Source: Alphaproteobacteria bacterium
GTDB taxonomy: Bacteria; Pseudomonadota; Alphaproteobacteria; RF32; CAG-239
Reading direction: 5' to 3'
Assembly (NCBI GenBank): GCA_017960745.1
Contig: JAGCYN010000021.1
Span: 1 to 47,622, forward strand
Length of the DNA stretch: 47,622 nt
The stretch's first letter is position 1. Every line of letters starts with the position of its first letter. This document shows positions 1-27,455 of this stretch, one piece after another. The translations under genes and the position numbers were made by a program. The notes under the pieces were generated by a model. It saw only the letters and a program-made list of their open reading frames with translations, made no database searches and was not told the origin of the DNA.

Positions 1-32
1 ACAAAAAAGGCGGGATAAAACCACCCGCCTTT
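1..32 (-). terminator. Rho-independent terminator downstream of the giant Cys-rich gene
   Basis: Inverted repeat AAAGGCGGG (6-14) / CCCGCCTTT (24-32). On the minus strand the stem runs into a T-run (complement of the A-run at 3-8). It lies 27 nt past the TAA at 59-61. Confidence 0.7.
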
Positions 33-58: not shown

Positions 59-3000
59 TTATTCATACTCACTTTGCAAGTCGCCGATGTTGACTTCACT
101 GTATGCCGGGCAAGCCGTACCGCTCTTGATACAGAGGTAACCGACACTCGAACATACTCTGGTCGAATTACCGCTTGAATGACATTCCGGAACTACACAG
201 CAGTGTCTGCCTTCTCCCGGATAATCACTATCGCAGTTTCTGTCACCGCAAGTTGAAGAACCGGATGTCTGACCTGCCGTACCGTTCGACATCGCGAAGT
301 CAAACGAGAAGTCAAACGAGAAGTCATACGAGAAGTCATACGAATAGCTGTCGTAGCTGTAGTTGTCACCGCCACCGGTGCCGGAACCGCCGCCGGAGCC
401 GCCGCCACCGGAACCGCCGGAACCACCGGAACCACCGGAACCGCCGCTACTGCTATTGGTACCGCAGTAACAGTTTGCACCACTGCCTTTGACAACTTGA
501 CCACTGCCACAGCTTAAGGTTTTAGACTTGTAACAGGTACCCGTACCGCATTTTTGCGGCTGGGTATCCCAACAACCGGATGACGGTTTGGTTATACTAT
601 ATCCGCTATCACAAAAGGCTTCCCTTTTAATGTAGCAAATATTACCGTCCGCAAGATCCTCTTTCTTCTCGTAGCATGTGGTATCCGGAAGGCTTGCCCC
701 CTTGGTCCAACTTGAATTGCTACATGTGGAAGTCGCACAATCATATATCGAACCAATCGGATTACAACCGGACATATGACCGTAATCTGACGGTTTTGCT
801 ACATTTGGTGCACAACATACATCCGTACACTTCCCTGCCGGACTGACAACCGAGATATGCGTATATCTGATTGGTCTCTCACCGGAACAGGTATTGCTAA
901 TCTCGCATCTGATGCAGTCTTTACCATCAGATTTGGCACCGACAGGAACCGGTGTATAACCCTGATTACATGTTCCGCCGGCTAAGCTGCCGTCCGGACA
1001 CGGCTTTACAGTGCATCTCCAGTATGGATATTGCTTATCACCAATCGTGCACGCTTCGCAAGTATAGCCATCTGCTGACTTATCTTGATCAAAGTTATAC
1101 CCTATTCTTGCACAGGCATCTGCTTGTGTCAAGCAACGACCGCCCATCTCAATCTTCGGTGATTTACAAGTCATATTCTTGTATTTACCGTAGTTCGGGT
1201 TGCCGGCTTGTGTACACGGTCCCGTACAGTCATAACCGGCTGCAGACGTACAAACATTGTACTCACCGACGCATTGGTTTTCTTCGCAGTAGCCGTTCGA
1301 CATAACCTTGCCTGACGGGCAGTAACATTGACAGGTACCTTCATTCAAAACCATACCGTTGGTACAGCTCTTGTTACAGTTACAGCTGCAGTTTGACTGA
1401 TTGAAGACAAAGCCGTCCGAGCAAGAGTCTGAATACATATCGCAGACTGCCGTATTCTGTACACAGCTCGTGCCTTCCAGGTGTGTGCCTGACGGACATG
1501 AGCAGTTCTCATACATACCCTGTTTCGGTCCAGGCTGTTCGCATCTGTTATGACACTGCATACCCATTGCTCTTTCCATGTTACCCCATGTCGTTGCATT
1601 CGGGCACAGGTCTTCTGCACAGGTACCGTTTGATTCAAACTTCGGTGCTTCGCATGAGCAGTCATAGTAGGTCTTTCCTTCGCAGGTGGCAACCTTCTGA
1701 CAGTCATAGCCCTTGCTCGTCTTATCAATCAGCGAGTAACCGCCGAACTTAACGTCATCCGGACACTTCAGCTGTTTACACTTATATTTATAAGCATTCG
1801 GTGAGTTAAAGCACGTACATACTTCGCACTCATAACCTTCTGACGGTTCCGACTTCCACGTATAGTCTTTACACGTATCCGTACATGCGTGACCGCCTGA
1901 TGCACCGTCACTGTAACCGCCGCCGGAGATTAAATCTTCGTAGCAGTCCGTACACGGTACACATCTTTGTTCCGCATCACTCCACATACTGCCTTCGCAG
2001 TAGCAACGTGTCCATTGATCCGAGAACGGACAGGTCGGACAATACATACCGTATTGCGGAGCCGCCTTCGGATTATTCTTGGTATAACCCCAACGTCTAC
2101 AAATTGCGTCAACTTCACACTTGTAGTATTCCGAGTTATACGAACACTTCTGGCACCACGAGTTTGCCGTGTTGGTATCAACGCCCCATTCGCTCAAGGA
2201 CTTATAACCGTCTACGCGGCACATATCTCCCGTCGTTTCAACCGATGTGCCTTTGTAGCGGCATGCATAGTATTGGTTCGTCACATCTACCGGACAACGT
2301 ACACAACCCGTATTCGTTATCGAATAACCGTCGCTGTACCCGAACGAGTAAGCATTCGCCGACGTCGTTTCAAGCGCTTTGATTTTGTTGTATATATCAG
2401 AACCGTAGCTAACGTTATACTTGCCGACACCGTCGTTAATCGCCGGACATTGCGTCTGCGTGATTTCGCCGTTGCCGCTTCTTTGGGCGTGACGACACTT
2501 ATAGAAGTTCTCAGAGCCTTCCGTTTCTGACGGACATTGTTCGCAAGTATATACTTTTGAACCGCCGTAGTACAACAAATTCGCTCTGTTAATTCGACTG
2601 CGGAAGTTGTTGCCGTATACAGAACCGTTCTTATCTCTCGATCCAGTATCCGTTAACGCCTTCGTCAAGTCAATCACATACCCGGCTGTCGCACAGCTGC
2701 CGTACGTACAACGATACTTGTTGTATTGGCTGTCAACATACCCCAGCGGACATTTCGCACATTTATAGCCTTGCGCCGTCTTCGTTTGCGCTTCGCTCTC
2801 GCTCAATGTGTATTCCGAACAGTTGCCGCTTACCGTACACTTATATTTGCTCTGCGTGCATTGCGTATCGCTCAGCATCGTCGCATAGCTACATAAGCTG
2901 CAGCCGCCGCTCAAGCCCTGTTCTTTTACCGCTGTATTCAACGCCGAAATCGCGCCGGTACCGCCGCTGACAAATGTATAACCTTCATCTGCCGTCGCCG

Positions 3001-4831
3001 ATACATCATATTTATATCCCAACGCCGAGCACAACTGGTTCTGCGATGTAATATTCACGCCGTTCAATACACATTTATACAACGATGATCCGCTGCGGCA
3101 CAAATCACATGTTCCGCCTTCTTTCTTCACAATGCTGATCAATGTATCCGAACAGCCGCTGCTTGAACTATCCGAGTAGCAGTCGTTGTATGCACTGCCG
3201 CCCTGTACTAAACAGGCCTCATCTGCCGAGCTCCATTCATAGCCCGGGTTGCAACTACAATCTTTCATGAAACGATTGTCATACGGACAATGCGTACATG
3301 TGCCGTACGGTGAATAGTCAATGCCCCAATCTTGGCTCGTGCCAACATGGAAGCCCATGTTATTGCACATATCCGATGCTGACGGCGGTGTGTATTGTGA
3401 TACCGCTTCCGATTGAGCATCAGATGTCGCATCCGGTACATTCGGTGCCGAACATACGCCGGAGGCATTAATGTAACTCGTCGGACAATAGCACAGATAG
3501 TTCGAGCATCCTGCCTTATAGCTACAACTGTAGTTCTTTGCTCTCAGCCCCGCTACCGCACTCGCCGGCGTCGTGTAACCCAAACAGTTCGTCGGGTCAT
3601 CCTGTATGCCGCTCGAGCTTGCATCCGATACCGTATTACCACCTGTATTTCTTAATTCACATGTCCCCAATCCGCTATTCCATACATATGGTTCAACACA
3701 GTGGCAATTCTTCATATAACGTCCATCGTCCGGACACCGAGTGCAGGAACCGCCCACCGAATAGAATATTGACCAATCCTGTGTCGTGGCAGCATGATAT
3801 CCCGAACATATCGTCGCCGGCGCCGATGATGTGCTGTCTCCGTAGCTGTAACCGCCACCGCTGCTGCAGTCAATACATGTATTGTTTGCACCGTAGCACC
3901 GATTACAATAACAACGTTGACTCTTGCCGCAGAAATTATCCGGCGATGCTTCACAGGTCCAGCCTTTCAGCTTTAATTCTCCCGCCGTTTGCGTATCCGT
4001 CGTGTAACCGTTGTTGATACACCACATCGAATCTCCCGCAGAATATTCCAATTCCGCAAACCCGACATTCGCACTGAAGCTTACCGATGACATCCGACAT
4101 TTTTTGACTTTCGTCGAACTCTTCACCGTATAGCCTTGCTTCTCACAGTCCGCTACACATGAACAGCTTCCGTCTCCGTTACGAATCTTCTGCTCGTTTG
4201 CTCCACATGTTAAGCCCGTGTTCGTGCATTCCAAACATGCACAGGTCGCCGCACTTGCCGTCTTGCCGGCCGGACAACTCAAACACGTGCCGTTGTCGCA
4301 CTTCGTATAGCCGCTGTTGCATACGCAGGTGTCTCCAACCGCGTGTGCATTCTGTTGGCATATCTTATGGCACGGACTGCCTTCATAACCGTCAACACAT
4401 GAACACCCGCCGCTGCTGTTTCGTACTTCGTGCGCACCGCATCTGACTAAGCAGGCATCCCCTTCTTTGACGTAACCGTCATTACATTGTACATAGCACG
4501 GCTTCGCTTCAACCAGTCTTCCGTTCGTCGGCGCTGTCTTAACACACTCGCCGCTGCATTCCGTATAGCCGCTTTCGCACCCGTTACATTTGTAGTAACC
4601 GCTGTCGCCGCACGCTTCACATACGTAGTGTGCCTTCGGTGCTGTTTCCGTACAATCTACATCTATCTCCGATCTCGGCGTTTCTACCATAATTCCCGAA
4701 CAGTCGTTCGACGGTAAGAAACAGGTTGATGCCTCAACCGGCTTTACCTGTGTCATACAGACCATTATACAGGCTGACAGAACCCAGTATAACCCTGTCT
4801 TTATAACACTCCCTTTATTTCTTGCGGACAT
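59..4831 (-). CDS. Giant secreted cysteine-rich repeat protein (1590 aa) with EGF-like modules, Gly/Ser linker, (S-[FY]-D-[FY]) repeats and a Cys-rich C-terminal domain
   Basis: Uninterrupted 4.77-kb ORF with SD AAGGAG upstream of the ATG. N-terminal signal peptide (MSARNKGSVIKTGLYWVLSACIMVCMTQVKPVEA|S). CSCVDGYEGSPC fits the EGF C-x-C-x2-G-Y-x4-C signature. Dozens of G-Y-x-C-x2-C...Y-[KR]-C units. Internal duplication of aa 341-408 versus aa 488-559. Confidence 0.85.
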   Translation of the reverse strand: MSARNKGSVIKTGLYWVLSACIMVCMTQVKPVEASTCFLPSNDCSGIMVETPRSEIDVDCTETAPKAHYVCEACGDSGYYKCNGCESGYTECSGECVKTAPTNGRLVEAKPCYVQCNDGYVKEGDACLVRCGAHEVRNSSGGCSCVDGYEGSPCHKICQQNAHAVGDTCVCNSGYTKCDNGTCLSCPAGKTASAATCACLECTNTGLTCGANEQKIRNGDGSCSCVADCEKQGYTVKSSTKVKKCRMSSVSFSANVGFAELEYSAGDSMWCINNGYTTDTQTAGELKLKGWTCEASPDNFCGKSQRCYCNRCYGANNTCIDCSSGGGYSYGDSTSSAPATICSGYHAATTQDWSIFYSVGGSCTRCPDDGRYMKNCHCVEPYVWNSGLGTCELRNTGGNTVSDASSSGIQDDPTNCLGYTTPASAVAGLRAKNYSCSYKAGCSNYLCYCPTSYINASGVCSAPNVPDATSDAQSEAVSQYTPPSASDMCNNMGFHVGTSQDWGIDYSPYGTCTHCPYDNRFMKDCSCNPGYEWSSADEACLVQGGSAYNDCYSDSSSSGCSDTLISIVKKEGGTCDLCRSGSSLYKCVLNGVNITSQNQLCSALGYKYDVSATADEGYTFVSGGTGAISALNTAVKEQGLSGGCSLCSYATMLSDTQCTQSKYKCTVSGNCSEYTLSESEAQTKTAQGYKCAKCPLGYVDSQYNKYRCTYGSCATAGYVIDLTKALTDTGSRDKNGSVYGNNFRSRINRANLLYYGGSKVYTCEQCPSETEGSENFYKCRHAQRSGNGEITQTQCPAINDGVGKYNVSYGSDIYNKIKALETTSANAYSFGYSDGYSITNTGCVRCPVDVTNQYYACRYKGTSVETTGDMCRVDGYKSLSEWGVDTNTANSWCQKCSYNSEYYKCEVDAICRRWGYTKNNPKAAPQYGMYCPTCPFSDQWTRCYCEGSMWSDAEQRCVPCTDCYEDLISGGGYSDGASGGHACTDTCKDYTWKSEPSEGYECEVCTCFNSPNAYKYKCKQLKCPDDVKFGGYSLIDKTSKGYDCQKVATCEGKTYYDCSCEAPKFESNGTCAEDLCPNATTWGNMERAMGMQCHNRCEQPGPKQGMYENCSCPSGTHLEGTSCVQNTAVCDMYSDSCSDGFVFNQSNCSCNCNKSCTNGMVLNEGTCQCYCPSGKVMSNGYCEENQCVGEYNVCTSAAGYDCTGPCTQAGNPNYGKYKNMTCKSPKIEMGGRCLTQADACARIGYNFDQDKSADGYTCEACTIGDKQYPYWRCTVKPCPDGSLAGGTCNQGYTPVPVGAKSDGKDCIRCEISNTCSGERPIRYTHISVVSPAGKCTDVCCAPNVAKPSDYGHMSGCNPIGSIYDCATSTCSNSSWTKGASLPDTTCYEKKEDLADGNICYIKREAFCDSGYSITKPSSGCWDTQPQKCGTGTCYKSKTLSCGSGQVVKGSGANCYCGTNSSSGGSGGSGGSGGSGGGGSGGGSGTGGGDNYSYDSYSYDFSYDFSFDFSFDFAMSNGTAGQTSGSSTCGDRNCDSDYPGEGRHCCVVPECHSSGNSTRVCSSVGYLCIKSGTACPAYSEVNIGDLQSEYE
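296..367 (-). repeat. In-frame 12-nt tandem repeat (4 near-perfect + 2 degenerate copies) encoding SFDF/SYDF units
   Basis: gaagtcaaacga x2 and gaagtcatacga x2 (296-343), then atagctgtcgta and gctgtagttgtc. Minus-strand translation is DNYSYDSYSYDFSYDFSFDFSFDF. Confidence 0.9.
368..450 (-). repeat. In-frame 9-nt-period GC-rich repeat encoding a (GGS)n linker
   Basis: Repeated ggaaccgcc/ggaaccacc units. Translation is SSSGGSGGSGGSGGSGGGGSGGGSGTGGG. Confidence 0.85.
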
Positions 4832-5059
4832 GTCTTATCTCCTTAATACACATATATGCCATTTTATTCTATCACACTTTTCGTTTTTTTCTACAACTTT
4901 TTTGTTACATTTTTGTTAAATATGTGCATAGTTTTAAAAAAAATCGGATACGAGAATGCAGACTATTTAAGCCTACGAAAAGCAAAATTTTTGTAACTAT
5001 TTAATAATGCTGTAAATTTTACCGAATGATGTATTTTATGACCGGATTATTGCCGATTA

Positions 5060-6289
5060 TCATTTTTTATGAACCGCCATCAAAACGTACGGAGTCGCAT
5101 TTTCCGAAGTCAGTTCATCAATATTTTGCCACGTAGCACCGGCTGAATCCCGACCGTCGCCGGATTGTTGCGGCAAACCGTTGATTTCAACATCATACAA
5201 TACCGCATTATGCTGTAACACCCCTGTTTCATGGCTTTGCGGCGTAAAATCGGAAAAAATAATCGAACGAAAGCGCTCATTTTCGGCACACACCGTTTCA
5301 CAACCGGTTTCTTCGCGAATTTCGCGTTTCAATGTGGTCAAAGAATCTTCACCGTGTTCCGGACTGCCGCCCGGTAAATCATACATACCGGTATACGGAC
5401 CGCGCGCCTTTTTAATCAGCAAAATCCGCCCGTTGCGAATAATGACACCGTACACGCCGAAATGAGACTTCGTCACCTGCGGGTTGCGAATCAAAACATG
5501 CTTAAACCATTGTTCTTGAAAAGCCGTCTGCGCCTCAATTTCTTCGTCAGTCATCCTGCAGTTTTCCGGCACAACAACCAATTTATCATCGTCATCATCG
5601 GTACGATGAATAACGCCGATACAGCGCCCGACGAAGTTATGCAACGGTTCTTTTACCCCCAAAACATAGGCATCCAACTCTTCCCCGTCACCGGAAACCG
5701 TATAAGGCACAAAGCCGTAATTTACCGGATATTCAAACCCGTGCTTCGGATGTTTGCTGCCCTGCGGTCGATCAATCGTAACCTGCACTTTTTGCCCGAT
5801 ATATCTTGCTGTCGGCAAATTATGCAAAACCACCGGATAATTATCCGCAGCATCCCACGGTTCATATTGCTTGGACAACGTATCAAATTCATCTTCCCGA
5901 ATATACAATTCCTGCGGATCCTCGGCAGAACGTTTCAGAATTCTTCTTTTAGCCTCATCCATCGCGCACCCGACCACATGAAACACCACATCATCGGTCA
6001 ATTTTTTGGCCTGAGCATACACTTTCTCCCGAACTTGATGTCCCCAAAAACCGTAATCCATAATGACATCGGTGCCGGTTTGAACAATTTTTGCGGCCAA
6101 ATCCCATAAAACACCGTCAACTTTTTGATAATTCGAATGAAATTCCGCATAAGGCATATTCCGGCCATAAAGCTTGACCATAAATTCATCGTGCGTTAAA
6201 CACACCGCCGACAAACGCGAAGCCATTTGCTTGGCAATTGTGGTTTTGCCAAACCCCATAAAGCCGACCATCAGATGTATTGCGGCCAT
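5060..6289 (-). CDS. Three-domain fusion: P-loop NTPase/kinase (AAA_33-like) + short inorganic-pyrophosphatase-like domain + NUDIX hydrolase
   Basis: Walker A GFMGFGKT at the N-terminus. Central DRPQGSKHPKHGFEYPVNYGFVPYTVSGDGEELDAYVLG matches short PPase-family proteins. The C-terminus has a complete NUDIX box, GSPEHGEDSLTTLKREIREETGC. SD GGGAGAA precedes the ATG. Confidence 0.75.
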   Translation of the reverse strand: MAAIHLMVGFMGFGKTTIAKQMASRLSAVCLTHDEFMVKLYGRNMPYAEFHSNYQKVDGVLWDLAAKIVQTGTDVIMDYGFWGHQVREKVYAQAKKLTDDVVFHVVGCAMDEAKRRILKRSAEDPQELYIREDEFDTLSKQYEPWDAADNYPVVLHNLPTARYIGQKVQVTIDRPQGSKHPKHGFEYPVNYGFVPYTVSGDGEELDAYVLGVKEPLHNFVGRCIGVIHRTDDDDDKLVVVPENCRMTDEEIEAQTAFQEQWFKHVLIRNPQVTKSHFGVYGVIIRNGRILLIKKARGPYTGMYDLPGGSPEHGEDSLTTLKREIREETGCETVCAENERFRSIIFSDFTPQSHETGVLQHNAVLYDVEINGLPQQSGDGRDSAGATWQNIDELTSENATPYVLMAVHKK

Positions 6290-14760: not shown

Positions 14761-15666
14761 TTAAGCCACCAATTCTTTCACTTTGGAAATTGCTTCATTG
14801 ATTTTGCTGACATCAACACCGCCGGCCTGAGCCATATCCGGTCTGCCGCCACCGCCTTTGCCGCCTAAAACTTCGGCAGCCGCACGCACAAAATCAACCG
14901 CGTTGTATTTATCGGTTAAATCCTGACTGACGCCGACAACCACTGATGCTTTATTATCTTTATCCGAGCATAAAACCACCACACCGGAACCGATATTTTG
15001 CATAATATCGTCCACAAACGATTTTAATTCTTTCGGATGTGTATCCGGCACCGTTTTACCGACAAACTTAACACCGTTCACAATTTCCGTTTCGTTTTGT
15101 GATTTTGCCTGACCGCCGGCCAAACTCTTTTTCAAATTAAAGATTTCGGCTTCAAGTTTCTTGCGTTCTTCCAACATGCCGTTGATACGATTTTCCATAT
15201 CGTTGATATTGGTTTTCAACATGGCGGAAACCTGATGCAGTTTATCTTCAATCGAGCGAACGTAACAATCGGCGCCGTAACCGGTAACACATTCCAAACG
15301 ACGGACACCGGCCGCCACGGCAGATTCCGAAACAATGTGGAAATAACCGATATTACCGGTTGAGCAAACGTGTGTACCGCCGCAAAGTTCGCGCGAGAAC
15401 GGCGCTTTTTCATCACCCATGGTCACCACGCGGACATCATCGCCGTATTTTTCATCAAACAGCGCCATCGCGCCGAGTTTTACCGCCTCATCTTTGTTCA
15501 TAATCACGGTATTTACCTTCAAATCACGGCAAATCTGCTCGTTGACAATATCTTCAACCTGTCGCAACTGCTCTGCCGTAACCTGTTTCGGATGCGAAAT
15601 ATCAAAGCGCATTCTGCCGGCTTCCACCGCCGAACCTTTTTGTGCCACATGATCGCCCAAAACCAT
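14761..15666 (-). CDS. alaS: Alanine--tRNA ligase, C-terminal fragment (editing-domain remainder + C-Ala/DHHA1)
   Basis: VLGDHVAQKGS...RFDISH, ELCGGTH and the GGKGGGRPDMAQAGG motifs of AlaRS. It is in frame with the upstream fragment, separated from it by one TAG and 6 sense codons. Confidence 0.85.
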   Translation of the reverse strand: MVLGDHVAQKGSAVEAGRMRFDISHPKQVTAEQLRQVEDIVNEQICRDLKVNTVIMNKDEAVKLGAMALFDEKYGDDVRVVTMGDEKAPFSRELCGGTHVCSTGNIGYFHIVSESAVAAGVRRLECVTGYGADCYVRSIEDKLHQVSAMLKTNINDMENRINGMLEERKKLEAEIFNLKKSLAGGQAKSQNETEIVNGVKFVGKTVPDTHPKELKSFVDDIMQNIGSGVVVLCSDKDNKASVVVGVSQDLTDKYNAVDFVRAAAEVLGGKGGGGRPDMAQAGGVDVSKINEAISKVKELVA

Positions 15667-15684
15667 TTTCAGAGCTTTATGAGC

Positions 15685-17391
15685 CTAGTGTGTTACCGAG
15701 TGGTTGGCACAAATACGACTACGATTGGTTTCATCAACTTCAAAATTGGCAAAAGCACCGACTTTAACCGTACCGTCTTCCAATTCGCAGACATGAACGA
15801 AAACATTGTCCAGCTTGCGTTTGCAATCCACCACTTTCGCCGTAAAATCTTTTGAGGTAATCACACCGATATCGCCGACCTGACCGCCGCATTCACCGTA
15901 AAACGGCGTTTGGTTGGCCACCAACTCGAATTTACCGCTTGTAACACTCGAAACTTCCTGACCGTTCTGAACCAACGCTTTGATTTCGCCGTCAGCTTTT
16001 AATGTGTTATAGCCGAGAAATTCCGTGGCGCCGCATTTATCCTGAATGCCGTACCAAACTTTTTCAACCCCGGCATCACCCGAACCGGCCCAGTTTTTAC
16101 GGGCTTCGGCTTTTTGTCTTTCCATGCAGGCATCAAAACCCTCAACATCAACCTCGATATCCTTGCTTTTCAAGGCATCTTGCGTTAAGTCAAGCGGAAA
16201 ACCGTAGGTATCATAAAGTTTGAACGCTGTTTCGCCGCTCAATTTGGAACCTTTCGGTAAATCAGCAATTTCTTCATCCAGCAGACGCATACCTTTATCC
16301 AGCGTGCGACCGAAACGCTCTTCTTCAATGGCAATGGTTTCTTTAATTAAATTTTCGCGGGCATAAAGTTCCGGATAAGCCTCGCCCATTTCCTTTTGCA
16401 ACACCGGCAACAACTTATAAATCATCGGATCTTTAACCCCGAGCAGATAAGCATGGCGCATCGCACGACGCATAATACGGCGCAAAACATAGCCACGGCC
16501 TTCATTAGACGGCAAAACCCCGTCGGCAATCAAAAAGCAAATGGCACGCAAGTGGTCGGCAATAACGTTATGAGAGGCTTTAAGCGGACCGTTTGGATCG
16601 GTATTTGCCAAATCGGCAATTGCTTTAATAATGTGCTGAAACATATCGGTTTCAAAGTTTGAGTGAACACCTTGCAAAATTGCCGCAATACGCTCCAAAC
16701 CCATGCCGGTATCAATAGACGGACGTTTTAAATTAATGCGCGAACCGTCAGGCAAGTCTTCAAACTGGTCAAACACCAAGTTCCAAATTTCAATGTATCG
16801 GTCACCGTCTTCTTCCGGCGTTCCCGGCAGACCGCCCCACACTTCCGGACCATGGTCATAAAAAATTTCCGAACACGGACCGCACGGACCGGTATCGCCC
16901 ATCTGCCAAAAATTGTCTTTTGTTGCAATACGGATAATTCTGTCTTCCGGCAATCCGGAAACTTTTTTCCAAATATTGTGAGCCTCGTCATCGTTATGAT
17001 AAATCGTTACCGCCAATTTTTCTTTCGGCAGACAAAATTCTTTGGTTAACAGTTCCCAAGCATACGGAATGGCATAATCTTTGAAATAATCGCCGAATGA
17101 AAAATTGCCGAGCATTTCAAAAAACGTATGGTGACGAACGTCATATCCGACGCTGTCCAAGTCGTTATGTTTACCGCCGGCGCGAACACTTTTTTGGGCG
17201 GTTGTCGCTCGCGTATAATCGCGTGTTTCATTTCCGGCAAGAATATTTTTAAACTGCACCATACCGGAATTTGTGAACATCAAAGTCGGATCATTATCCG
17301 GCACCAAAGACGAAGACGGAATAACTTTATGTCCGTTCTTGGCAAAATAATCCAAAAAAGTTTTACGAATTTCATTAACGCTGACAACCAT
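15685..17391 (-). CDS. alaS: Alanine--tRNA ligase, N-terminal fragment (catalytic + tRNA-recognition domains), ending at an in-frame TAG
   Basis: [36 protein letters not shown] and other class II AlaRS motifs. It ends ...NHSVTH-TAG, inside the conserved HxxxH of the editing domain. Confidence 0.9.
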
Positions 17392-21787: not shown

Positions 21788-21864
21788 CGGGGTGTAGCTC
21801 AGCCTGGTAGAGCGCTTGGTTTGGGACCAAGATGTCGCGTGTTCGAATCTCGTCGCCCCGACCA
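21788..21864 (+). tRNA. tRNA-Pro (anticodon TGG)
   Basis: Hand-folded: acceptor CGGGGTG/CGCCCCG, D arm GCTC-AGCCTGGTA-GAGC, anticodon arm CTTGG-TTTGGGA-CCAAG, T loop TTCGAAT, encoded CCA. One U52:U62 mismatch in the T stem. Confidence 0.85.
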
Positions 21865-21871
21865 CAAACAC

Positions 21872-21900
21872 AAAAAGCCACCATATTGGGTGGCTTTTTT
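21872..21900 (+). terminator. Rho-independent terminator after tRNA-Pro
   Basis: AGCCACC-atattg-GGTGGCT followed by T6. The stem is preceded by an A-run. Confidence 0.75.
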
Positions 21901-22032
21901 GTGTTTGTAGATTGCGTGCAATAGGTTTAGAACACGCGAGGAAGCGTGTTTGACACGGAGGCATGGCGAGACGGGAGTATCGCCGTATAAAGCCGACGCA
22001 GCGGCGCAGATTTTTTAACAAAAAATCAAGCC

Positions 22033-22051
22033 AATCTCGTCGCCCCGACCA
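22033..22051 (+). repeat. att-like direct repeat of the 3' end of tRNA-Pro
   Basis: AATCTCGTCGCCCCGACCA at 22033-22051 is identical to 21846-21864 (T-loop end through CCA). The flanking bases differ. Confidence 0.85.
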
Positions 22052-22312
22052 AACCTGACGAAAGCCTCTAGAGAGGATGTTCTCTAGAGGCTTTCTTATT
22101 GAAAATAAAGGATTTTTTCCTTCTAACAAAAAGTTCGAATAAAGCAATTTTAAAACTTTCCTTTTTTCATCAAAATTCGAACTTTCATAAATCTCAGGTA
22201 TCTTAGAAACTAACAATACCAAGTCTTCCAAGGTGTTTAGCCCTTGTTTGGTTATTTCATTATAGTGTGATAATTTTCTGTCTGTGGCTTTTAGCCGAAT
22301 ATCTGGGTGCAT
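22052..22312 (-). pseudogene. Remnant (C-terminal ~75 codons) of a recombinase gene abutting the att-like repeat
   Basis: SKIPEIYESSNFDEKRKVLKLLYSNFLLEGKNPLFSIRKPLENIL resembles the conserved C-terminal tail of large serine recombinase family proteins as I recall them. No catalytic domain is present upstream. The open frame runs on through the att copy and tRNA-Pro without a proper end. Confidence 0.45.
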
Positions 22313-22629
22313 TTGCCTTGCATAGTGAAAAAGAATTGGTAAAAAATACGCAAGAGGTGCTTTGGCCTCAAATTGTTAAAGGCTTAGCTAAACCTATAAC
22401 ACCGGAAGAAAAAACAACCGGAGCAAAAGACGGTAAGAAAGATATTCGCGATATTGCCTTTTCCGGCACATATGAAGAAATCCAAGCATATTTCAAGGAA
22501 ATGAAATGGTCTGACGGGCTGCCGATTGTGCCACCGACGGCTCAAAAAGTGAATGAATTTTTGAAATATACGCCACATAATTGGAACGAAACGATTGCCG
22601 TTCTACCAATTTCAAACAGAGAGATATAA
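22267..22629 (+). CDS. Hypothetical protein, possibly a truncated gene fragment
   Basis: 120-aa ORF with a conserved-looking stretch (MKWSDGLPIVPPTAQKV). No family confidently recognised. It lies in decayed DNA next to the recombinase remnant. Confidence 0.3.
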   Translation: MIIFCLWLLAEYLGAFALHSEKELVKNTQEVLWPQIVKGLAKPITPEEKTTGAKDGKKDIRDIAFSGTYEEIQAYFKEMKWSDGLPIVPPTAQKVNEFLKYTPHNWNETIAVLPISNREI

Positions 22630-22805
22630 TCAAGTGGAGCTCTATTGGTTGTGTGTGGCTAACAAAAAGCAGAAACTTATGCTATAAACACATTGATTTT
22701 TAGTGATAATTTAAGTATGCATAAAATGAGAATGTTTTACCAACCTCCGTCTTTCAAAAACCTCAAAATTTAATTGCTTTCTAGAGAATAGAGATATTTA
22801 GCGGC

Positions 22806-22850
22806 ATAAAAACATCCCCTCAGAAGAGTTTTCCTTCAAAGGGGATGTTC
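22806..22850 (-). terminator. Terminator after the carboxylesterase gene
   Basis: 10-bp stem AACATCCCCT / AGGGGATGTT, followed on the minus strand by a T-run. It lies 39 nt past the stop. Confidence 0.6.
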
Positions 22851-22888
22851 TTAAGTTTGTAACAGAAAACAACATTCACTTGACACAT

Positions 22889-24688
22889 TTAATGAATATT
22901 CTTTTTACTTTCAATATCTTCTGTCACCTTTTGTTTTGCTGCCAATACACCGTTTATATATCTTTGATAAACTTCCGGATAGCGCTCTGCGACAATCGGC
23001 AACTGTTCGGCAAATCCATTAATATAGCGGAACCGTTTGCCACTTTTCATCATTTTTAATGCCGCATCCACACGCTCTTTCTCCGGATTGGTTTCAACGC
23101 GCATATTGTCGCCAATCATCATTTTTTGACGCGTTTCATTATTGTAAACCGGCCAAGCATATTTTTCAGTAGACGGATCACCGGTTTTTGCAAAATTGGC
23201 TATCATTTTTTGAAATTCCAATGCCAAGTCTACTTCTTCTTTAGTCCCTTTCACATCAACTCCGTCAAATGTTCCGAACATATAGTAGCAGTCTATTGCG
23301 TGCGCTGCTCCTAAATATTCAGGATAATCATATTTCTTTTCAAAAGTATAACTGTAGCTGATGCCGCCGTTTTTAGCGTGTTCTAATGCCTGATAGGTAT
23401 TACCGATGGAAAGTGTTTTATCGTCCATATAACGGCTGGTAATTTCTTTACCGGAATAACCTAAGTTTTTCAATGCTTCTTTATATTGAGACAAATCCGT
23501 TTTAAATTCTTCTGTTTCCAGACTTTCATCCGTATCCATCCACACCTGACAAACGGCATCAAACATCTCTTCATCACCTAAAAAAACAGCTTGAAAATAA
23601 CGGAATTCATCAGCAGTATGCCCTTGCATAATGATTAAATCTTTACTCATACCATCTTCCCAAAGTTTGAAAGGATCATTTGGTATAATTTTGCCGTCAC
23701 GCACAATCAAGCTGTATAAATCTATTGCATTTTGATCCCAATACTTTTGAATTGTTTTGAAATCAATTTGCTGTAAATCTTTGACTGTTTTTGCTCCAAA
23801 TTCTTTTTTAAGAGCTTCTGGCAGGGCTAAAGTTTCTTCCATATCATTTCCCTGATTAACCGATCCGCTCATCGGGATAGCTTTTTGGAAAAGACCTTTT
23901 GCCTCCGGTAAAGTGCAAAGCGTTGAAACAGCTCCTCCGCCGGCTGATTCACCGGCAATCGTAATATTATTCGGATCACCGCCGAAAGCTGCAATATTTT
24001 CTTTAATCCATTTAAGTGATTGAACTAAATCAAAAATACTGTTATTGATTGATGTTTCATATTCTTTACCGTCAGGAAATTCGGAAAGATTCATTATTCC
24101 CATCATGCCCATACGATAGGTAACCGTAACTAATATCACATCAGGGTTGTGTTGAGCAAAAAACTGTCCGTTGTAAAGCGGGTCGGCAGTTCCGCCTTGC
24201 AGCCAACCACCCCCGTGAATAAACACCAGAACCGGTTTTTCTTTTGCGCCATTAACATTCTTCCAGACATTCAAATTTAAGCAAGCCTCGCTTTGTTCGT
24301 AAAGTGACGATCTTTCACCTGTTGGATCAATAGGTTGCATGCATGACGGTCCGAAGTAATACGCTTCATAGACCTTATCCGATGCTTCGGGATCTGTTGC
24401 CTTCTTAAAGCGTTTATCACCAACGGGTTGTGTTGCAAAAGGAATACCCTTCCATGCAATAACATCATCTTGTTTTCTGCCGACAAAAATGCCGTTCTTA
24501 CAATCAGCCGCCAAACTCTTATCATATTCACCGGTTATTTCTAAATTGGGATGATATTCCTCTATCTGGTTGATTTCTTGCCATTGTGCTTGCGTTTTAT
24601 AAGGAGAAACAGCACTATATCCGCAAGGAACATAACCGCCAATTCCTAACAATAAAGCAATTACACCTGAAATAGTTAATTTTGACAT
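22889..24688 (-). CDS. Secreted carboxylesterase, type B (COesterase family)
   Basis: Signal peptide, oxyanion HGGGW, and nucleophile elbow GESAGGG within ITIAGESAGGGAVS. 599 aa. Confidence 0.85.
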   Translation of the reverse strand: MSKLTISGVIALLLGIGGYVPCGYSAVSPYKTQAQWQEINQIEEYHPNLEITGEYDKSLAADCKNGIFVGRKQDDVIAWKGIPFATQPVGDKRFKKATDPEASDKVYEAYYFGPSCMQPIDPTGERSSLYEQSEACLNLNVWKNVNGAKEKPVLVFIHGGGWLQGGTADPLYNGQFFAQHNPDVILVTVTYRMGMMGIMNLSEFPDGKEYETSINNSIFDLVQSLKWIKENIAAFGGDPNNITIAGESAGGGAVSTLCTLPEAKGLFQKAIPMSGSVNQGNDMEETLALPEALKKEFGAKTVKDLQQIDFKTIQKYWDQNAIDLYSLIVRDGKIIPNDPFKLWEDGMSKDLIIMQGHTADEFRYFQAVFLGDEEMFDAVCQVWMDTDESLETEEFKTDLSQYKEALKNLGYSGKEITSRYMDDKTLSIGNTYQALEHAKNGGISYSYTFEKKYDYPEYLGAAHAIDCYYMFGTFDGVDVKGTKEEVDLALEFQKMIANFAKTGDPSTEKYAWPVYNNETRQKMMIGDNMRVETNPEKERVDAALKMMKSGKRFRYINGFAEQLPIVAERYPEVYQRYINGVLAAKQKVTEDIESKKNIH

Positions 24689-24839
24689 ATTATCCTCCCA
24701 TTATTTTCTATTATGGTGAAATACTATATTGTTTAATTGAAATATGCAATATTTTTATCATCTTTTTAAAAAATTTGACTGCAAAAATTATTTGATATAT
24801 AAAAGATTTTGAATTTAACAATTAACAAAAGGTGGGAAA

Positions 24840-25880
24840 ATGAAACTTTTAACTACAACTGTTTTGGTTGTTGGATTGTGCTTTGGCATTATTACAGAAT
24901 CTAATGCTTGTTCACGTGTAACATATACCTCCGAAGATGGGAGTGTTGTTACCGGTCGTACAATGGACTGGTTCAAACCGGATGATGTGAAATTAAATTT
25001 ATTTCCTAAAGGAATAGAATATTCCGGTTTAGGTAGCAACCCGCTTAAATGGACTTCAAAATATGCAAGTTTGGCAGTTACCAGTTATGGTTTTGTAAAC
25101 TCCGGTATTAATGAAGAAAATTTAGCTGTTGATGTTTTATATTTGGAAGCATCCAATTATGGTGATTTACAGCCTGAAGAAAAGACAATAACCTCTGAAA
25201 TGGTAACACGTTTCCTATTGGATAATTTTTCATCTGCTCAAGAAGTAGCAGATTATTTCGAAAATGAAAAATTTCGTGTTGTTTTAGATGAAGAAAGAGC
25301 CAAACTTTTAGGCGCCCCTATAACCATTCACTATATTGTAACGGATAAAACAGGTGATAATGTTATTATTGAATATATTGACGGCAAAGTAAAAATACAC
25401 CATCAAAAGGGACGAATTGTTTTTACCAACGATCCGGAATATGATAAAATGCTTGCTATAAAAGACTATTTTAAGGAGGCGGGAATTGAAGGAGGCATGC
25501 CGGGTTCATCATTATCGCAAGCCCGCTTTGTATATTTAACAGGATGGTTGGATCAGATGGTTAACACTCCAATACCGGAAATTACAAAAGAAATTCCGGA
25601 ATATACATTTGCCGATCAAACATCAGCTATGATACTTTCCTTAATGCGCGGTGTTTCTACACCGTATGGAATAGTTTTTGACACAGAACACTTAAATAAT
25701 ACATCAACTTTGTGGCGCACTGTATCTGATGTAAAAAATGGTGTGTTTTATTTTGACTCTTCCTTATTACCTTTAACATTTAAGGTTGATTTGAATCAGG
25801 TTGATTTTACTAAGCCTAAGGTTGTAAGTCCTTATAAAGACCATATTCCTCAGGGTGATATTACAGATTTGTTTAAATAA
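24840..25880 (+). CDS. Secreted Ntn hydrolase, choloylglycine hydrolase / linear amide C-N hydrolase family
   Basis: The signal peptide ends ...ESNA|CSRVTY, exposing the N-terminal nucleophile Cys. The family motif GRTMDW follows. SD GGTGGGAAAATG. Confidence 0.8.
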   Translation: MKLLTTTVLVVGLCFGIITESNACSRVTYTSEDGSVVTGRTMDWFKPDDVKLNLFPKGIEYSGLGSNPLKWTSKYASLAVTSYGFVNSGINEENLAVDVLYLEASNYGDLQPEEKTITSEMVTRFLLDNFSSAQEVADYFENEKFRVVLDEERAKLLGAPITIHYIVTDKTGDNVIIEYIDGKVKIHHQKGRIVFTNDPEYDKMLAIKDYFKEAGIEGGMPGSSLSQARFVYLTGWLDQMVNTPIPEITKEIPEYTFADQTSAMILSLMRGVSTPYGIVFDTEHLNNTSTLWRTVSDVKNGVFYFDSSLLPLTFKVDLNQVDFTKPKVVSPYKDHIPQGDITDLFK

Positions 25881-25925
25881 TGTGCCGCTATAAATCTAAA
25901 AGCAAATTAGATAAAAAGAAAACCA

Positions 25926-25950
25926 CCTAACTTCAATAAGTTAGGCTGTT
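25926..25950 (+). terminator. Terminator after the Ntn hydrolase gene
   Basis: CCTAACTT-caat-AAGTTAGG followed by a T-rich tail. Confidence 0.5.
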
Positions 25951-26075
25951 TAATGGTTATGCTCAATTAACAAAAAGCGGCAACTTGTACCTAATTAAAA
26001 TATTGATTTTTAATAAAAATTTTAGCCTGTATGTAATTGCGATATTTTTAACAATCTCTGACTATTAAAATTAGT

Positions 26076-26294
26076 TTAAGCACAAAACAAGATAAAAAAT
26101 ATTACAATCGTTATCAATATTAAAAAATAAATCAATGTCTGCCACAGAAGACGTTTTCCGAAACTTAAAGTTTTATTTTTATAAAAACGATTTATCAGCG
26201 GATTGCCCAAAATATAGGTTAATACAAATGATATAACGGCAAATATCCGAAAGTTATATCTTAATGTTTCTTTGTTTTTTAAATAAAACTCCAA
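26076..26294 (-). CDS. Small membrane protein (72 aa)
   Basis: Two predicted TM helices. Overlaps the upstream small ORF by 16 nt. No family recognised. Confidence 0.4.
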   Translation of the reverse strand: MEFYLKNKETLRYNFRIFAVISFVLTYILGNPLINRFYKNKTLSFGKRLLWQTLIYFLILITIVIFFILFCA

Positions 26295-26419
26295 ATCATC
26301 TCTTCAAAAGGAGTATTTTCCAGAAAAGCAAAGAACAAACCTATCGTTAGTGTAACGATTATAATCCAGTATATCCAAAATTTTGCGACATTAATCAATT
26401 TACTTCCGAACTTAGGCAT
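26279..26419 (-). CDS. Small membrane protein (46 aa)
   Basis: MPKFGSKLINVAKFWIYWIIIVTLTIGLFFAF with SD AAGGA 7 nt upstream. The longer form in the ORF track lacks an SD. Confidence 0.4.
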   Translation of the reverse strand: MPKFGSKLINVAKFWIYWIIIVTLTIGLFFAFLENTPFEEMIWSFI

Positions 26420-26438
26420 TTCAAATCCTTTCGTGCTC

Positions 26439-26951: not shown

Positions 26952-26989
26952 CTTGCTACCTGTGGTTTTATTTTTAATTTTATTCAAAA

Positions 26990-27023: not shown

Positions 27024-27057
27024 GAGATTCATTTAAGCTGTAAGTTGTTTAAATTTA

Positions 27058-27444: not shown

Positions 27445-27455
27445 AATATCTCCGC

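What the first reader, a model, noticed from the sequence alone, without database searches (positions are those of the whole stretch)
59..4831. 1590-aa secreted, extremely cysteine-rich protein with EGF-like signatures in a bacterium
The sequence shows one uninterrupted ORF with a Sec signal peptide. The first ~230 aa contain EGF-type spacing; for example, CSCVDGYEGSPC (aa 143-154, nt 4370-4405) fits both PROSITE EGF patterns. More than 1000 aa of degenerate units follow, built around G-[YW]-x-C-x2-C ... Y-[KR]-C. One clear ~70-aa internal duplication is present (nt 3608-3811 versus 3155-3370). The protein ends with a GGS linker, an (S-[FY]-D-[FY]) repeat and an ~80-aa Cys-rich terminal domain. 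CXXC-dense giant surface proteins are typical of eukaryotic parasites (Giardia VSP-like) and of metazoan matrix proteins, not of Gram-negative bacteria. I cannot place it in any bacterial adhesin family (no Ig-like, RTX, autotransporter or LPXTG features). By inference, it is a disulfide-stabilised surface or secreted host-mimicking adhesin, or a variable antigen.
Basis: partly seen in the sequence, partly recalled or inferred. Interest (0 to 1): 0.8.

Follow-up and report, generated by a model that had tools for sequence, protein, structure and literature searches.

The report
Orphan cysteine-rich EGF-like secreted protein
An uncultured rumen alphaproteobacterium encodes a real, conserved 1590-residue secreted protein built from about 35 small cysteine-knotted, loosely EGF-like modules; it has almost no relatives in public sequence data, and its function (probably an extracellular rod or adhesin) is untested.

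Summary
ORF 59-4831(-) is a genuine gene with an SD site, an extended -10 promoter and a terminator. It was recovered identical or 99.9% identical in three further metagenome contigs. dN/dS is 0.11-0.15 against a diverged ortholog.

The protein has a Sec/SPase-I signal, 156 mature cysteines (an even number in every region) and no other hydrophobic segment. Cysteines are 86-92% conserved against 33-41% for other residues.

No Pfam or NCBIfam model matches. Weak but convergent evidence (PROSITE EGF_2 pattern 4 vs 0.09 expected; Foldseek to NELL2, Pfs25 and Notch EGF arrays; unit profiles to factor VII/IX EGF2) shows that the N-terminal array and the duplicated 'unit A' are divergent EGF-like modules. 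The central ~770 aa is a new 4-Cys module (CxxC...Y[KR]C, 7 vs 0.08 expected).

The family is tiny: one distant homolog (P0001), one diverged ortholog and strain variants among billions of proteins.

Secretion and a disulfide scaffold are supported. The adhesin or host-mimic role is inference. A classic variable antigen is disfavoured.

One oddity remains unexplained. The promoter/leader and the terminator are conserved between the two distant homologs, although their coding DNA is unalignable.

The parts
59..4831 (-). Complete CDS, 1590 aa, of the cysteine-rich secreted protein
   Evidence: Identical on contigs L001 and L002, and 1588/1590 identical in P0016. dN/dS 0.11-0.15 vs the L051 ortholog.
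4832..4931 (-). Conserved promoter and 5' leader: extended -10 (TG-n-TAGAAT, hexamers 4893..4866) and Shine-Dalgarno AAGGAG at 4844-4839, 7 nt before the ATG
   Evidence: 72% identical to the 100 nt upstream of the P0001 gene, while sequence farther upstream is unrelated at 39%. No Rfam family matches.
8..29 (-). Intrinsic terminator hairpin GGCGGGTGG-TTTTA-TCCCGCC followed by a T-run, about 30 nt after the stop codon
   Evidence: 33 of 35 aligned nt identical to the terminator of the P0001 gene, including an exactly identical 33-nt core. Unique in the window, and absent from 46 related MAG loci and from JGI metagenome contigs.
4730..4831 (-). Signal peptide aa 1-34 (n-region MSARNKGSVIK, h-region, then VEA|ST). 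The AxA site and the following C-F-L-P-S are conserved in homologs
   Evidence: The only hydrophobic segment: KD19 maximum 1.64 at aa 7-9, and 0.89 or less elsewhere. Alignment with P0001 and P0003. The apparent lipobox LSAC21 is not conserved in the homologs.
4097..4729 (-). N-terminal EGF-like hairpin array, aa 35-245, 30 Cys. It contains 3 copies of the N-unit C-x3-C-x2-[NH]-[EQ]-x6-C-x-C-x2-GY
   Evidence: AF2 pLDDT 74-84 for aa ~60-180. Foldseek: NELL2 EGF1-6 E=4.9e-4, prob 0.99; also NEL, uromodulin, Pfs25/28, Notch and RSPO. N-unit HMM. N-unit profile vs PDB sequences: IMPI, NELL1, Pfs25 and thrombomodulin EGF. Weak hits to eukaryotic EGF-repeat proteins.
3812..4096 (-). Spacer plus an 8-Cys cluster, aa 246-340
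   Evidence: AF2 pLDDT below 35, so no structural inference.
3647..3811 (-). Unit A copy 1, aa 341-395: a 6-Cys EGF-like module with an enlarged C1-C2 loop (G[YF]H...G-x-C-x2-C...[YF]MK[ND]C-x-C...Y...C)
   Evidence: the unit A profile's top PDB hits are all factor VII/IX EGF2, E 0.018-0.5.
3452..3586 (-). Degenerate 6-Cys unit aa 416-460, flanked by Ser/Asp/Thr-rich Cys-free linkers (aa 396-415 and 461-488)
   Evidence: The region aa ~394-425 is deleted and frameshifted in the L051 ortholog.
3209..3367 (-). Unit A copy 2, aa 489-541
   Evidence: 57% identical to copy 1, E=1e-11. AF2 pLDDT 79-86. P0001 carries about 12 copies of this unit.
902..3208 (-). Central region aa 542-1310, 76 Cys: about 9-10 degenerate 4-Cys modules C-x2-3-GY...G[YW]-x-C-x2-C-x5-14-[YW][KR]-C with long loops. 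It includes the internal duplication aa 1058-1130 / 1169-1240
   Evidence: Motif 7 vs 0.08 expected. Duplication. Best-conserved part vs P0001, 46% identity. AF2 pLDDT 51.8 and no significant Foldseek hit.
464..901 (-). Lineage-specific Cys-rich region aa 1311-1456 (16 Cys). Not alignable with P0001 and absent from the L051 ortholog
368..463 (-). Gly/Ser linker aa 1457-1488, encoded by a 9-12-nt in-frame tandem array
   Evidence: Its only PDB 'hits' are engineered GGS linkers. Same length in P0016.
296..367 (-). Aromatic/acidic S-[YF]-D-[YF] repeat aa 1489-1512. Nt 296-343 is a 12-nt x4 tandem array at 97% identity
62..295 (-). C-terminal 8-Cys domain aa 1513-1590, with no hydrophobic anchor and no recognised sorting signal
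   Evidence: No Pfam or NCBIfam hit. No significant similarity to the C-termini of P0001 or the L034 proteins.

Best explanation
The gene encodes a Sec-exported, signal-peptidase-I-processed, acidic protein of about 165 kDa made of roughly 35 small cysteine-knotted modules.

Module types:
- an N-terminal array of EGF-like hairpin units;
- two 'unit A' modules, which are 6-Cys EGF-like modules with an enlarged first loop;
- about 10 novel 4-Cys CxxC...Y[KR]C modules with long variable loops;
- a lineage-specific Cys-rich region;
- a flexible GGS tether, an aromatic/acidic S[YF]D[YF] stretch and a small 8-Cys end domain.

Proposed mechanism, in order:
1. Export through Sec. This is shown to the extent that a conserved signal peptide can show it.
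2. Oxidative folding in the periplasm, pairing all 156 cysteines into about 78 intramodule disulfides. This is inferred from Cys conservation, even Cys counts per region, CC depletion and EGF-type spacing.
3. The result is a protease-resistant, elongated, semi-rigid rod, by analogy with tandem-EGF proteins (inferred).
4. The rod is released or displayed outside the cell. There its long loops or its variable C-terminal part bind a partner such as host epithelium or mucus, a rumen protist or fungus, plant fibre or another bacterium (inferred, untested).

It is a standalone transcription unit with no dedicated secretion partner next to it. It belongs to a tiny orphan family confined, as far as public data show, to a narrow lineage of uncultured rumen/gut Alphaproteobacteria.
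For: Real, expressed-looking gene: SD AAGGAG, extended -10 promoter and terminator. Identical or 99.9% identical in three further contigs. dN/dS 0.11-0.15.

Export: the N-terminal hydrophobic segment is the only one in the protein. The AxA site plus the CFLPS motif are conserved in P0001 and P0003.

Disulfide scaffold: Cys is 86-92% conserved vs 33-41% for other residues (Q vs P0001), and 118/118 conserved vs the L051 ortholog. Cys counts are even in every region (30, 8, 6, 6, 6, 76, 16, 8) and in both mature proteins (156 and 190). CC is depleted, 2 vs 15.8. His is only 1%.

EGF-like modules: EGF_2 pattern 4 vs 0.09 expected. AF2 hairpin array with pLDDT 74-84, and Foldseek hits that are almost exclusively EGF or furin-like arrays (NELL2 E=4.9e-4, prob 0.99). 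Unit profiles hit EGF modules in the PDB. The N-unit matches EGF-repeat proteins of eukaryotes at library-wide E values of 1.6e-6 to 5.7e-4.

Modular evolution: unit A is present in 2 copies here and about 12 in P0001.

No partner genes: the flanking genes are a Nudix-fusion gene and accA.

Organism: rumen/gut alphaproteobacterial MAGs, with Aas up to 94% identical. Such MAGs are described as metabolically reduced (PMC8992543), which is compatible with dependence on attachment to partners (inference).
Against: - No curated EGF, furin, TNFR or VSP model matches, even at E<=10.
- The structural evidence rests on a 3-sequence alignment. Mean pLDDT is about 52, TM-scores are 0.1-0.2, and about 70% of the protein, including the whole central region, has no reliable model.
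- Cys-rich composition can inflate the weak E-values.
- Localisation beyond the inner membrane is unknown. There is no recognisable outer-membrane export or anchoring signal and no adjacent secretion genes.
- No Dsb gene lies in the 47.6-kb window, and the rest of the genome could not be examined.
- The rumen is strongly reducing, which raises the question of whether extracellular disulfides persist there.
- No binding partner or expression data exist.
Confidence: 0.55

Rival explanations
1. Envelope structural protein. After Sec export the protein stays in the periplasm or on the inner face of the outer membrane and forms intermolecular disulfide cross-links that stiffen the envelope, functionally like the chlamydial cysteine-rich outer-membrane complex (OmcB/OmcA).
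For: It has a signal peptide but no recognisable outer-membrane export, anchor or sorting signal. It is very Cys-rich. It is a standalone gene among housekeeping genes. It is under purifying selection.
Against: There is no similarity to chlamydial Cys-rich proteins. Even Cys counts within each module-sized region suggest intramodule rather than intermolecular pairing. The gene is missing at the syntenic position, and from everything fetched, in 46 related MAG loci, which is odd for a core envelope component. Peptidoglycan-remodelling genes are present in the window (MltA, lysozyme).
Confidence: 0.13
2. Metal- or redox-buffering protein. In the anoxic rumen the cysteines stay reduced and coordinate Zn, Fe or Cu, or act as a thiol sink, as has been proposed for the CXXC motifs of Giardia VSPs (from general knowledge).
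For: 10% Cys with 20 CxxC motifs. The habitat is strongly reducing. No Dsb gene is seen in the window.
Against: CxxC is not enriched beyond composition (20 vs 15.6). CC pairs, typical of metallothioneins, are strongly depleted (2 vs 15.8). His is only 1%. Cys spacing and the co-conserved Gly and Tyr match EGF-type disulfide modules. Cys counts are even in every region.
Confidence: 0.1
3. Variable surface coat with cassette exchange. Family members with very different coding regions share conserved promoter/leader and terminator ends, and are swapped or converted by recombination, giving antigenic or receptor-specificity variation at the population level.
For: The terminator is identical (33 nt) and the 100-nt leader is 72% identical between two genes whose CDS share no BLASTN-detectable similarity and about 40% aa identity, while the outer flanks are unrelated. 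Unit A copy number differs, 2 vs about 12. dS along the gene vs the L051 ortholog is very uneven, 0.12-1.9, suggesting mosaicism. The C-terminal ~280 aa is lineage-specific and missing in L051.
Against: Gene-wide dN/dS is 0.11-0.15, and no 100-aa window exceeds 0.26. The protein is identical or 99.9% identical, with unchanged microsatellite lengths, across separately assembled contigs. Only one copy lies in the window, and no silent cassettes or recombinase genes are nearby. The hairpin tag was not found elsewhere.
Confidence: 0.1
4. Artefact: a chance ORF, or an assembly chimera of collapsed repeats.
For: The gene lies at the very edge of the window. The L051 ortholog is frameshifted and sits on a possibly chimeric scaffold.
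Against: The same 1590-aa product is found on two other contigs made by different assemblers, and a 2-substitution allele on a third. There are no DNA repeats longer than about 50 nt. The gene has SD, promoter and terminator. It is under purifying selection. A homolog exists with 86-92% Cys conservation.
Confidence: 0.01

Closest known systems
Metazoan tandem-EGF extracellular proteins (NELL2/NEL, Notch, uromodulin, thrombomodulin; coagulation factor VII/IX EGF2)
   Same: Small disulfide-knotted modules in series. The C-x-C-x2-G-[YFW]-x4-8-C signature is present. The predicted hairpin-array fold of aa ~60-180 matches these arrays. Unit A has the same C2-x2/3-C3-x9-C4-x-C5-x~12-C6 framework as factor VII EGF2.
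   Different: No Pfam EGF-clan model reaches even E=10. Unit A has a ~20-residue helix-containing C1-C2 loop. The central modules have 4 Cys and loops of 20-50 residues. No Ca-binding EGF consensus was seen. The host is bacterial.
Cys-rich surface proteins of anaerobic or parasitic eukaryotes (Plasmodium Pfs25/Pfs28, Entamoeba Gal/GalNAc lectin, Giardia VSP, ciliate surface antigens)
   Same: About 10% Cys, with EGF-like or CXXC modules covering an extracellular protein of a gut-dwelling organism. Pfs25/28 are recurrent Foldseek hits. The only outside sequence relatives of the N-unit include proteins in eukaryotic genomes. From my memory of the accession numbers, these are Entamoeba invadens (GCA_000330505) and the rumen fungus Anaeromyces robustus (GCA_002104895).
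   Different: There is no transmembrane or GPI-type anchor and no CRGKA tail. There is no Pfam VSP hit. CxxC is not enriched beyond composition. There is no evidence of a multigene repertoire. The gene is under purifying selection.
Chlamydial cysteine-rich outer-membrane complex proteins (OmcB/OmcA)
   Same: Sec-exported, Cys-rich envelope proteins of a Gram-negative bacterium that depend on disulfide formation.
   Different: There is no sequence or family match. Cys density is much higher here. The architecture is modular and EGF-like. The protein is not conserved across the clade.
Myxococcus cysteine-rich repeat proteins (TIGR02232) and other bacterial Cys-rich repeat families
   Same: Bacterial secreted proteins with repeated Cys-rich units.
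   Different: The NCBIfam scan gives no hit at E<=1, and the repeat consensus is unrelated.
Other orphan Cys-rich secreted proteins of gut Alphaproteobacteria (L034 11042-12481 and 12561-14087; family P0008-P0015)
   Same: Same clade, a signal peptide, 8-12% Cys, the C-x-A-x-G-Y motif, and a Ser/Gly linker before a small C-terminal domain.
   Different: There is no significant sequence or profile similarity: BLASTP E=0.45 and hhalign probability 0.2%.

Membership tests
EGF-like domain superfamily (PROSITE PS00022/PS01186; Pfam EGF clan) | PROSITE signature C-x-C-x2-[GP]-[FYW]-x4,8-C (EGF_2) and C-x-C-x5-G-x2-C (EGF_1) | tested here: met
   EGF_2 matches 4 times (aa 143, 169, 376, 525) vs 0.09 expected, P<0.0002. 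EGF_1 matches once vs 0.17 expected, P=0.16.
EGF-like domain superfamily (PROSITE PS00022/PS01186; Pfam EGF clan) | A match to a curated EGF-type profile HMM above its gathering score | tested here: not met
   The full protein gives zero Pfam hits at E<=1. The N-terminal 230 aa gives zero hits at E<=10. The unit A region gives only a sub-threshold RANK_CRD_2 hit, 17.7 bits against a cut-off of 26.8.
EGF-like domain superfamily (PROSITE PS00022/PS01186; Pfam EGF clan) | A fold of small two-stranded beta-hairpin modules in tandem, similar to solved EGF arrays | tested here: inconclusive
   For aa ~60-180 (pLDDT 74-84) Foldseek returns almost only EGF or furin-like arrays (NELL2 E=4.9e-4, prob 0.99), but TM-scores are 0.1-0.2 and the alignment holds only 3 sequences. 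For the central region the best hit is E=0.05.
EGF-like domain superfamily (PROSITE PS00022/PS01186; Pfam EGF clan) | Six cysteines paired C1-C3, C2-C4, C5-C6 | not testable with these tools
   Unit A has 6 Cys with factor VII EGF2-like spacing. The N-units and central modules have 4. Connectivity needs disulfide mapping or a confident structure.
Giardia variant-specific surface proteins (Pfam PF03302) | Pfam VSP profile match | tested here: not met
   No hit.
Giardia variant-specific surface proteins (Pfam PF03302) | A C-terminal transmembrane anchor with a conserved CRGKA tail | tested here: not met
   There is no hydrophobic segment beyond the signal peptide (maximum KD19 0.89), and the C-terminus is ...GDLQSEYE.
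Giardia variant-specific surface proteins (Pfam PF03302) | CXXC motifs enriched as the organising repeat | tested here: not met
   20 CxxC vs 15.6 +/- 3.5 expected from composition.
Myxococcus cysteine-rich repeat (TIGR02232) | NCBIfam/TIGRFAM profile match | tested here: not met
   No NCBIfam hit at E<=1.
Known Gram-negative adhesin classes (autotransporter, TPS/TpsA, RTX, Ig-like/Big, LPXTG) | The corresponding Pfam or NCBIfam domains (beta-barrel, TPS domain, RTX nonapeptides, Big domains, sorting signals) | tested here: not met
   No hits. The method does detect an autotransporter beta-domain in another ORF of the same window, E=1.7e-33.
Chlamydial cysteine-rich OMPs (OmcB) | Pfam Chlam_OMP6-type profile match | tested here: not met
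   No Pfam hit.
TNFR / furin-like cysteine-rich repeats | Profile match above the cut-off | tested here: not met
   Only RANK_CRD_2 at E=0.004, 17.7 bits against a cut-off of 26.8. TNFR1 and RSPO Fu appear only as non-significant Foldseek hits.

The most novel reading that the evidence does not exclude
The family could be a bacterial counterpart of protist cysteine-rich variant surface coats. Under this reading, EGF-like modules were acquired from, or converged with, those of anaerobic gut eukaryotes. The genes would be carried as expression cassettes whose conserved promoter/leader and identical terminator act as recombination handles, so that very different coding bodies can be swapped between loci or strains.
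Probability: 0.1. Interest if true: 0.8.

Novelty: new variant of a known kind. Interest (0 to 1): 0.5.

Why it matters
Disulfide-rich tandem-EGF-type architecture is a hallmark of eukaryotic extracellular proteins and is rare in bacteria.

Here a 1590-residue protein with about 78 putative disulfides sits in an uncultured, metabolically reduced rumen alphaproteobacterium. It has essentially no relatives among billions of predicted proteins. Two of its module types (the expanded-loop unit A and the 4-Cys CxxC...Y[KR]C unit) are not covered by any curated model.

If it is an extracellular rod or adhesin, it would point to how these unculturable bacteria attach to partners in the gut. It would also raise the question of how an anaerobe folds and exports so many disulfides.

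The conserved expression ends around unalignable coding DNA are an additional, unexplained evolutionary pattern worth testing with long-read genomes.

Tried and rejected
- Pfam and NCBIfam on the full protein and on three sub-regions: nothing.
- PDB sequence search with the full protein: only engineered GGS linkers, which are meaningless.
- Homolog searches: the word-indexed search of 5.8e9 clusters, with the single sequence and with a 2-sequence profile, gave only P0001. Exhaustive phmmer of aa 1-1200 against 1.84e9 representatives gave 7 hits.
- GTDB representative genomes with the family alignment: no relative, though the two patterns chosen by the tool were poor.
- JGI metagenome contigs with the central alignment and with the terminator 21-mer: nothing.
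- Plasmid and phage records: nothing.
- Synteny via Aas in 46 related MAG loci: no homolog, and little synteny at all.
- Self-BLAST of the whole protein returned only the identity hit, so fragment-vs-whole BLAST was used instead.
- HMM iteration for the central module did not converge; a regex with shuffle controls was used instead.
- AF2 on aa 561-1320 was too poor to interpret.
- A suspected shared C-terminal motif with the L034 proteins was not significant, so the idea of one clade-wide superfamily was rejected.
- Lipoprotein reading of LSAC21: rejected, because the lipobox is not conserved in P0001 or P0003 whereas the AxA site is.
- P0006 operon context: uninformative.
- Rfam on the conserved leader: nothing.
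- Literature search for the sample accessions: nothing.
Full report
**1. The observation**

Composition is extreme, at 9.9% Cys (158 residues), 11.6% Ser, 11.3% Gly and 6.8% Tyr.

CSCVDGYEGSPC is aa 143-154 (nt 4370-4405) and fits both PROSITE EGF patterns. The duplication aa 341-408 / 488-559 is real, at 57% identity and E=1e-11 over the core. The C-terminus carries a GGS linker (aa 1457-1488), an S[YF]D[YF] repeat (aa 1489-1512) and a 78-aa 8-Cys domain.

Shuffle controls refine the picture:
- Plain CxxC is not enriched beyond composition (20 vs 15.6 +/- 3.5).
- CC is strongly depleted (2 vs 15.8).
- [YW][KR]C (9 vs 0.9) and G[YFW] (35 vs 17) are enriched.
- The composite CxxC-x5-14-[YW][KR]C occurs 7 times vs 0.08 expected.
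- EGF_2 occurs 4 times vs 0.09 expected (P<0.0002), whereas the single EGF_1 match is not significant.

**2. Is it a real gene?**

Yes, on five grounds.
- An AAGGAG Shine-Dalgarno lies 7 nt before the ATG. An extended -10 promoter-like site lies in the 228-nt upstream intergenic region, and a G+C-rich hairpin plus T-run follows the stop.
- The identical 1590-aa product is encoded on two ENA metagenome contigs made by different assemblers (L001, L002). A 1588/1590-identical allele (P0016), with the same microsatellite lengths, is on a third.
- At the DNA level the gene contains only two short in-frame tandem arrays (GGS and S[YF]D[YF]) and no long repeats that could collapse.
- Against a diverged ortholog (L051, about 85% nt identity), dN/dS is 0.11-0.15.
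- The chimera or artefact scenario named as a refutation condition is therefore excluded.

**3. Organism and context**

Neighbouring genes are ordinary chromosomal genes of a diderm bacterium: a Nudix-fusion protein, Aas, tRNA-Thr, MscK, Asd, EptA, AlaS, RNase J, Map, an autotransporter, MltA, SecB, PPDK and Rho. Left of the window, contig L001 shows accA. So there is no adjacent secretion system, and no Dsb gene lies in the window.

Aas is up to 94% identical to rumen/gut alphaproteobacterial MAGs of the RUG, RGIG and UBA series. These lineages (orders such as RF32 and Rs-D84) are uncultured and are described as metabolically reduced (PMC8992543).

None of the 46 related loci contains a homolog, and synteny around Aas is poor.

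**4. Distribution**

The family is extraordinarily small.
- The word-indexed search of 5.8e9 clusters gave one relative, P0001 (2120 aa, about 40% identity). A profile search gave the same result.
- Exhaustive phmmer of aa 1-1200 against 1.84e9 representatives gave 7 hits. Two are fragments (P0002, P0003) that lie on one contig, L051: a diverged ortholog that is frameshifted at a linker and truncated at about aa 1310. One is P0001. Four are weak hits confined to aa 85-208.
- GTDB representative genomes, JGI metagenomes, plasmids and phages gave nothing.

**5. Anatomy**

*Signal peptide (aa 1-34).* It is the only hydrophobic segment in the protein. The AxA cleavage site and the following C-F-L-P-S are conserved in P0001 and P0003. 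The apparent lipobox LSAC21 is not conserved, so signal peptidase I processing is the better reading.

*Cysteine counts.* The mature protein has 156 Cys. Every delimited region has an even number: 30, 8, 6, 6, 6, 76, 16 and 8. Mature P0001 has 190.

*Cysteine conservation.* Cys are 86-92% conserved between the two distant homologs, against 33-41% for other residues. They are conserved 118/118 against the L051 ortholog. Gly and Tyr are the next most conserved residues. This is the signature of a disulfide scaffold.

*Three module types can be defined:*

(a) The N-unit, C-x3-C-x2-[NH]-[EQ]-x6-C-x-C-x2-GY, is present in 3 copies within the 30-Cys N-terminal array.
- It is shared, at library-wide E values of 1.6e-6 to 5.7e-4, with EGF-repeat proteins P0004-P0007. 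These show weak or marginal Pfam EGF-type matches themselves.
- P0007 and P0005 lie in eukaryotic genome assemblies. From memory of the accessions, these are Entamoeba invadens and the rumen fungus Anaeromyces robustus; this was not verified with tools.
- P0006 is prokaryotic.

(b) Unit A is about 50 aa with 6 Cys. There are 2 copies here and about 12 in P0001, so module copy number evolves. Its profile's best PDB matches are all the EGF2 domain of coagulation factors VII and IX (E 0.018-0.5), which have the same C2...C6 framework. Unit A differs in having an enlarged C1-C2 loop.

(c) The central 4-Cys modules (aa 542-1310) have loops of 20-50 residues. This region contains a second internal duplication.

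*C-terminal part.* The last ~280 aa are lineage-specific.

**6. Structure**

With only three sequences per alignment, AF2 gave mean pLDDT values of about 52. Two segments are usable: aa ~60-180 (pLDDT 74-84, a string of short hairpins) and unit A2 (pLDDT 79-86).

Foldseek with the N-terminal model returns almost exclusively tandem EGF or furin-like arrays: NELL2 EGF1-6 (E=4.9e-4, prob 0.99), NEL, uromodulin, Pfs25/28, Notch, SCARF1 and R-spondin. TM-scores are low, as expected for flexible rods.

The central region gave nothing significant.

No curated HMM matches anywhere, whether EGF clan, VSP, furin, TNFR, TIGR02232, chlamydial OMPs or adhesin domains. An autotransporter in the same window is readily detected.

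**7. Interpretation**

The best-supported reading is a Sec-exported, disulfide-knotted, acidic (net charge -38) modular rod of divergent EGF-like units, probably extracellular or surface-associated with a binding role.
- Export and the Cys scaffold are supported by sequence evidence.
- EGF-likeness is supported weakly but by four independent lines: pattern statistics, fold search, unit profiles and remote homologs.
- Oxidative folding, the rod shape, localisation outside the outer membrane, and adhesion are inferences.

Rivals:
- a disulfide-cross-linked envelope component, like chlamydial OmcB;
- a metal/thiol-buffering protein. This is disfavoured by CC depletion, low His, EGF-type spacing and Cys parity;
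- a variable coat with cassette exchange.

The 'variable antigen' idea in its classical form is disfavoured by dN/dS of 0.11-0.15 and by near-identity among separately assembled contigs.

**8. An unexplained feature**

Between the window gene and the P0001 gene, the coding DNA is not alignable by BLASTN. Yet the terminator is identical over 33 nt, and the 100 nt before the ATG are 72% identical, including the extended -10, the leader and the SD. The outer flanks are unrelated.

The hairpin occurs nowhere else in the window, in about 700 kb of related MAG loci, or in JGI metagenomes.

dS along the gene against the L051 ortholog is also very uneven, 0.12 to 1.9.

Possible explanations are paralogs with gene conversion at their ends, cassette replacement, or unusually strong regulatory constraint. 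Long-read genomes would decide between them.

**9. Novelty and verdict**

This is not a member of any curated family. It works most like tandem-EGF extracellular proteins, so I rate it a new variant of a known kind.

It is unusual: a bacterial protein with about 78 putative disulfides, from an anaerobic habitat, almost without relatives, whose only outside similarity is to proteins of gut eukaryotes. But its function is untested, and no new mechanism is demonstrated.

Interest is 0.5. The most novel reading not excluded, a bacterial VSP-like exchangeable coat cassette, has a probability of about 0.1.

Noticed in passing
window 27456-28286 (-): A 276-aa ORF matches Pfam PF00277, Serum amyloid A (E=3.9e-15, 56.5 bits against a cut-off of 30.8). 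This is a vertebrate-type acute-phase protein domain in a bacterial genome.
   Followed up: no
window ~21800-28300: A low-GC stretch (0.31-0.37 vs 0.41-0.49 elsewhere; GC3 0.32-0.33) starts right after tRNA-Pro (21788-21864). It holds a carboxylesterase (22889-24688), a choloylglycine/bile-salt-hydrolase family protein (24840-25880) and the SAA-like ORF. It is a possible horizontally acquired, host-interaction island.
   Followed up: partly
window 14761-17391 (-): Alanine-tRNA ligase is split into two ORFs: 15685-17391 covers model positions 1-561 and 14761-15666 covers positions 570-847 of TIGR00344. This could be a frameshift, an internal stop or an assembly error in an essential gene.
   Followed up: no
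window 32213-35626 (-): A 1137-aa autotransporter (PF03797 beta-domain, E=1.7e-33). It is a conventional surface protein in the same window and served as a positive control for adhesin-domain detection.
   Followed up: no
window 8-29 and 4832-4931; L003 1-163 and 6527-6570: The terminator hairpin is identical (33 nt) and the 100-nt leader is 72% identical between the window gene and the P0001 gene, although the CDS are unalignable at the DNA level and the outer flanks are unrelated.
   Followed up: partly
L051 1-4321: A diverged ortholog (~85% nt identity) has a ~30-aa deletion plus a frameshift in the linker at aa ~394-425. It ends at about aa 1310, so it lacks the GGS/S[YF]D[YF]/C-terminal parts. 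Both contig ends are unrelated to the window context. It may be a pseudogene, a variant architecture or a chimeric scaffold. dS vs the window gene ranges from 0.12 to 1.9 along the gene.
   Followed up: partly
L034 11042-12481 (-) and 12561-14087 (-): A fecal alphaproteobacterial MAG carries two adjacent secreted proteins with 8-12% Cys, C-x-A-x-G-Y modules and a poly-Ser/Gly linker. One has its own small unnamed family (P0008-P0015, no Pfam domains). They are not detectably related to the target. Cys-rich orphan secreted proteins may be a recurring trait of this clade.
   Followed up: yes
L052 1121-2398 (P0006): A 425-aa prokaryotic protein with an N-terminal hydrophobic segment carries three N-units that are 48% identical to aa 115-186 of the target (e.g. 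C-x-x-N-E-V-R-N-S-S-G-x-C-x-C-x-x-G-Y-E). It lies in a tightly packed operon of uncharacterised genes.
   Followed up: partly
window 5060-6289 (-): The 409-aa upstream neighbour appears to be a three-part fusion: an N-terminal P-loop/kinase-like part, an inorganic-pyrophosphatase-like middle (aa 183-265) and a C-terminal Nudix hydrolase (aa 275-394). All matches are far below the family cut-offs.
   Followed up: no
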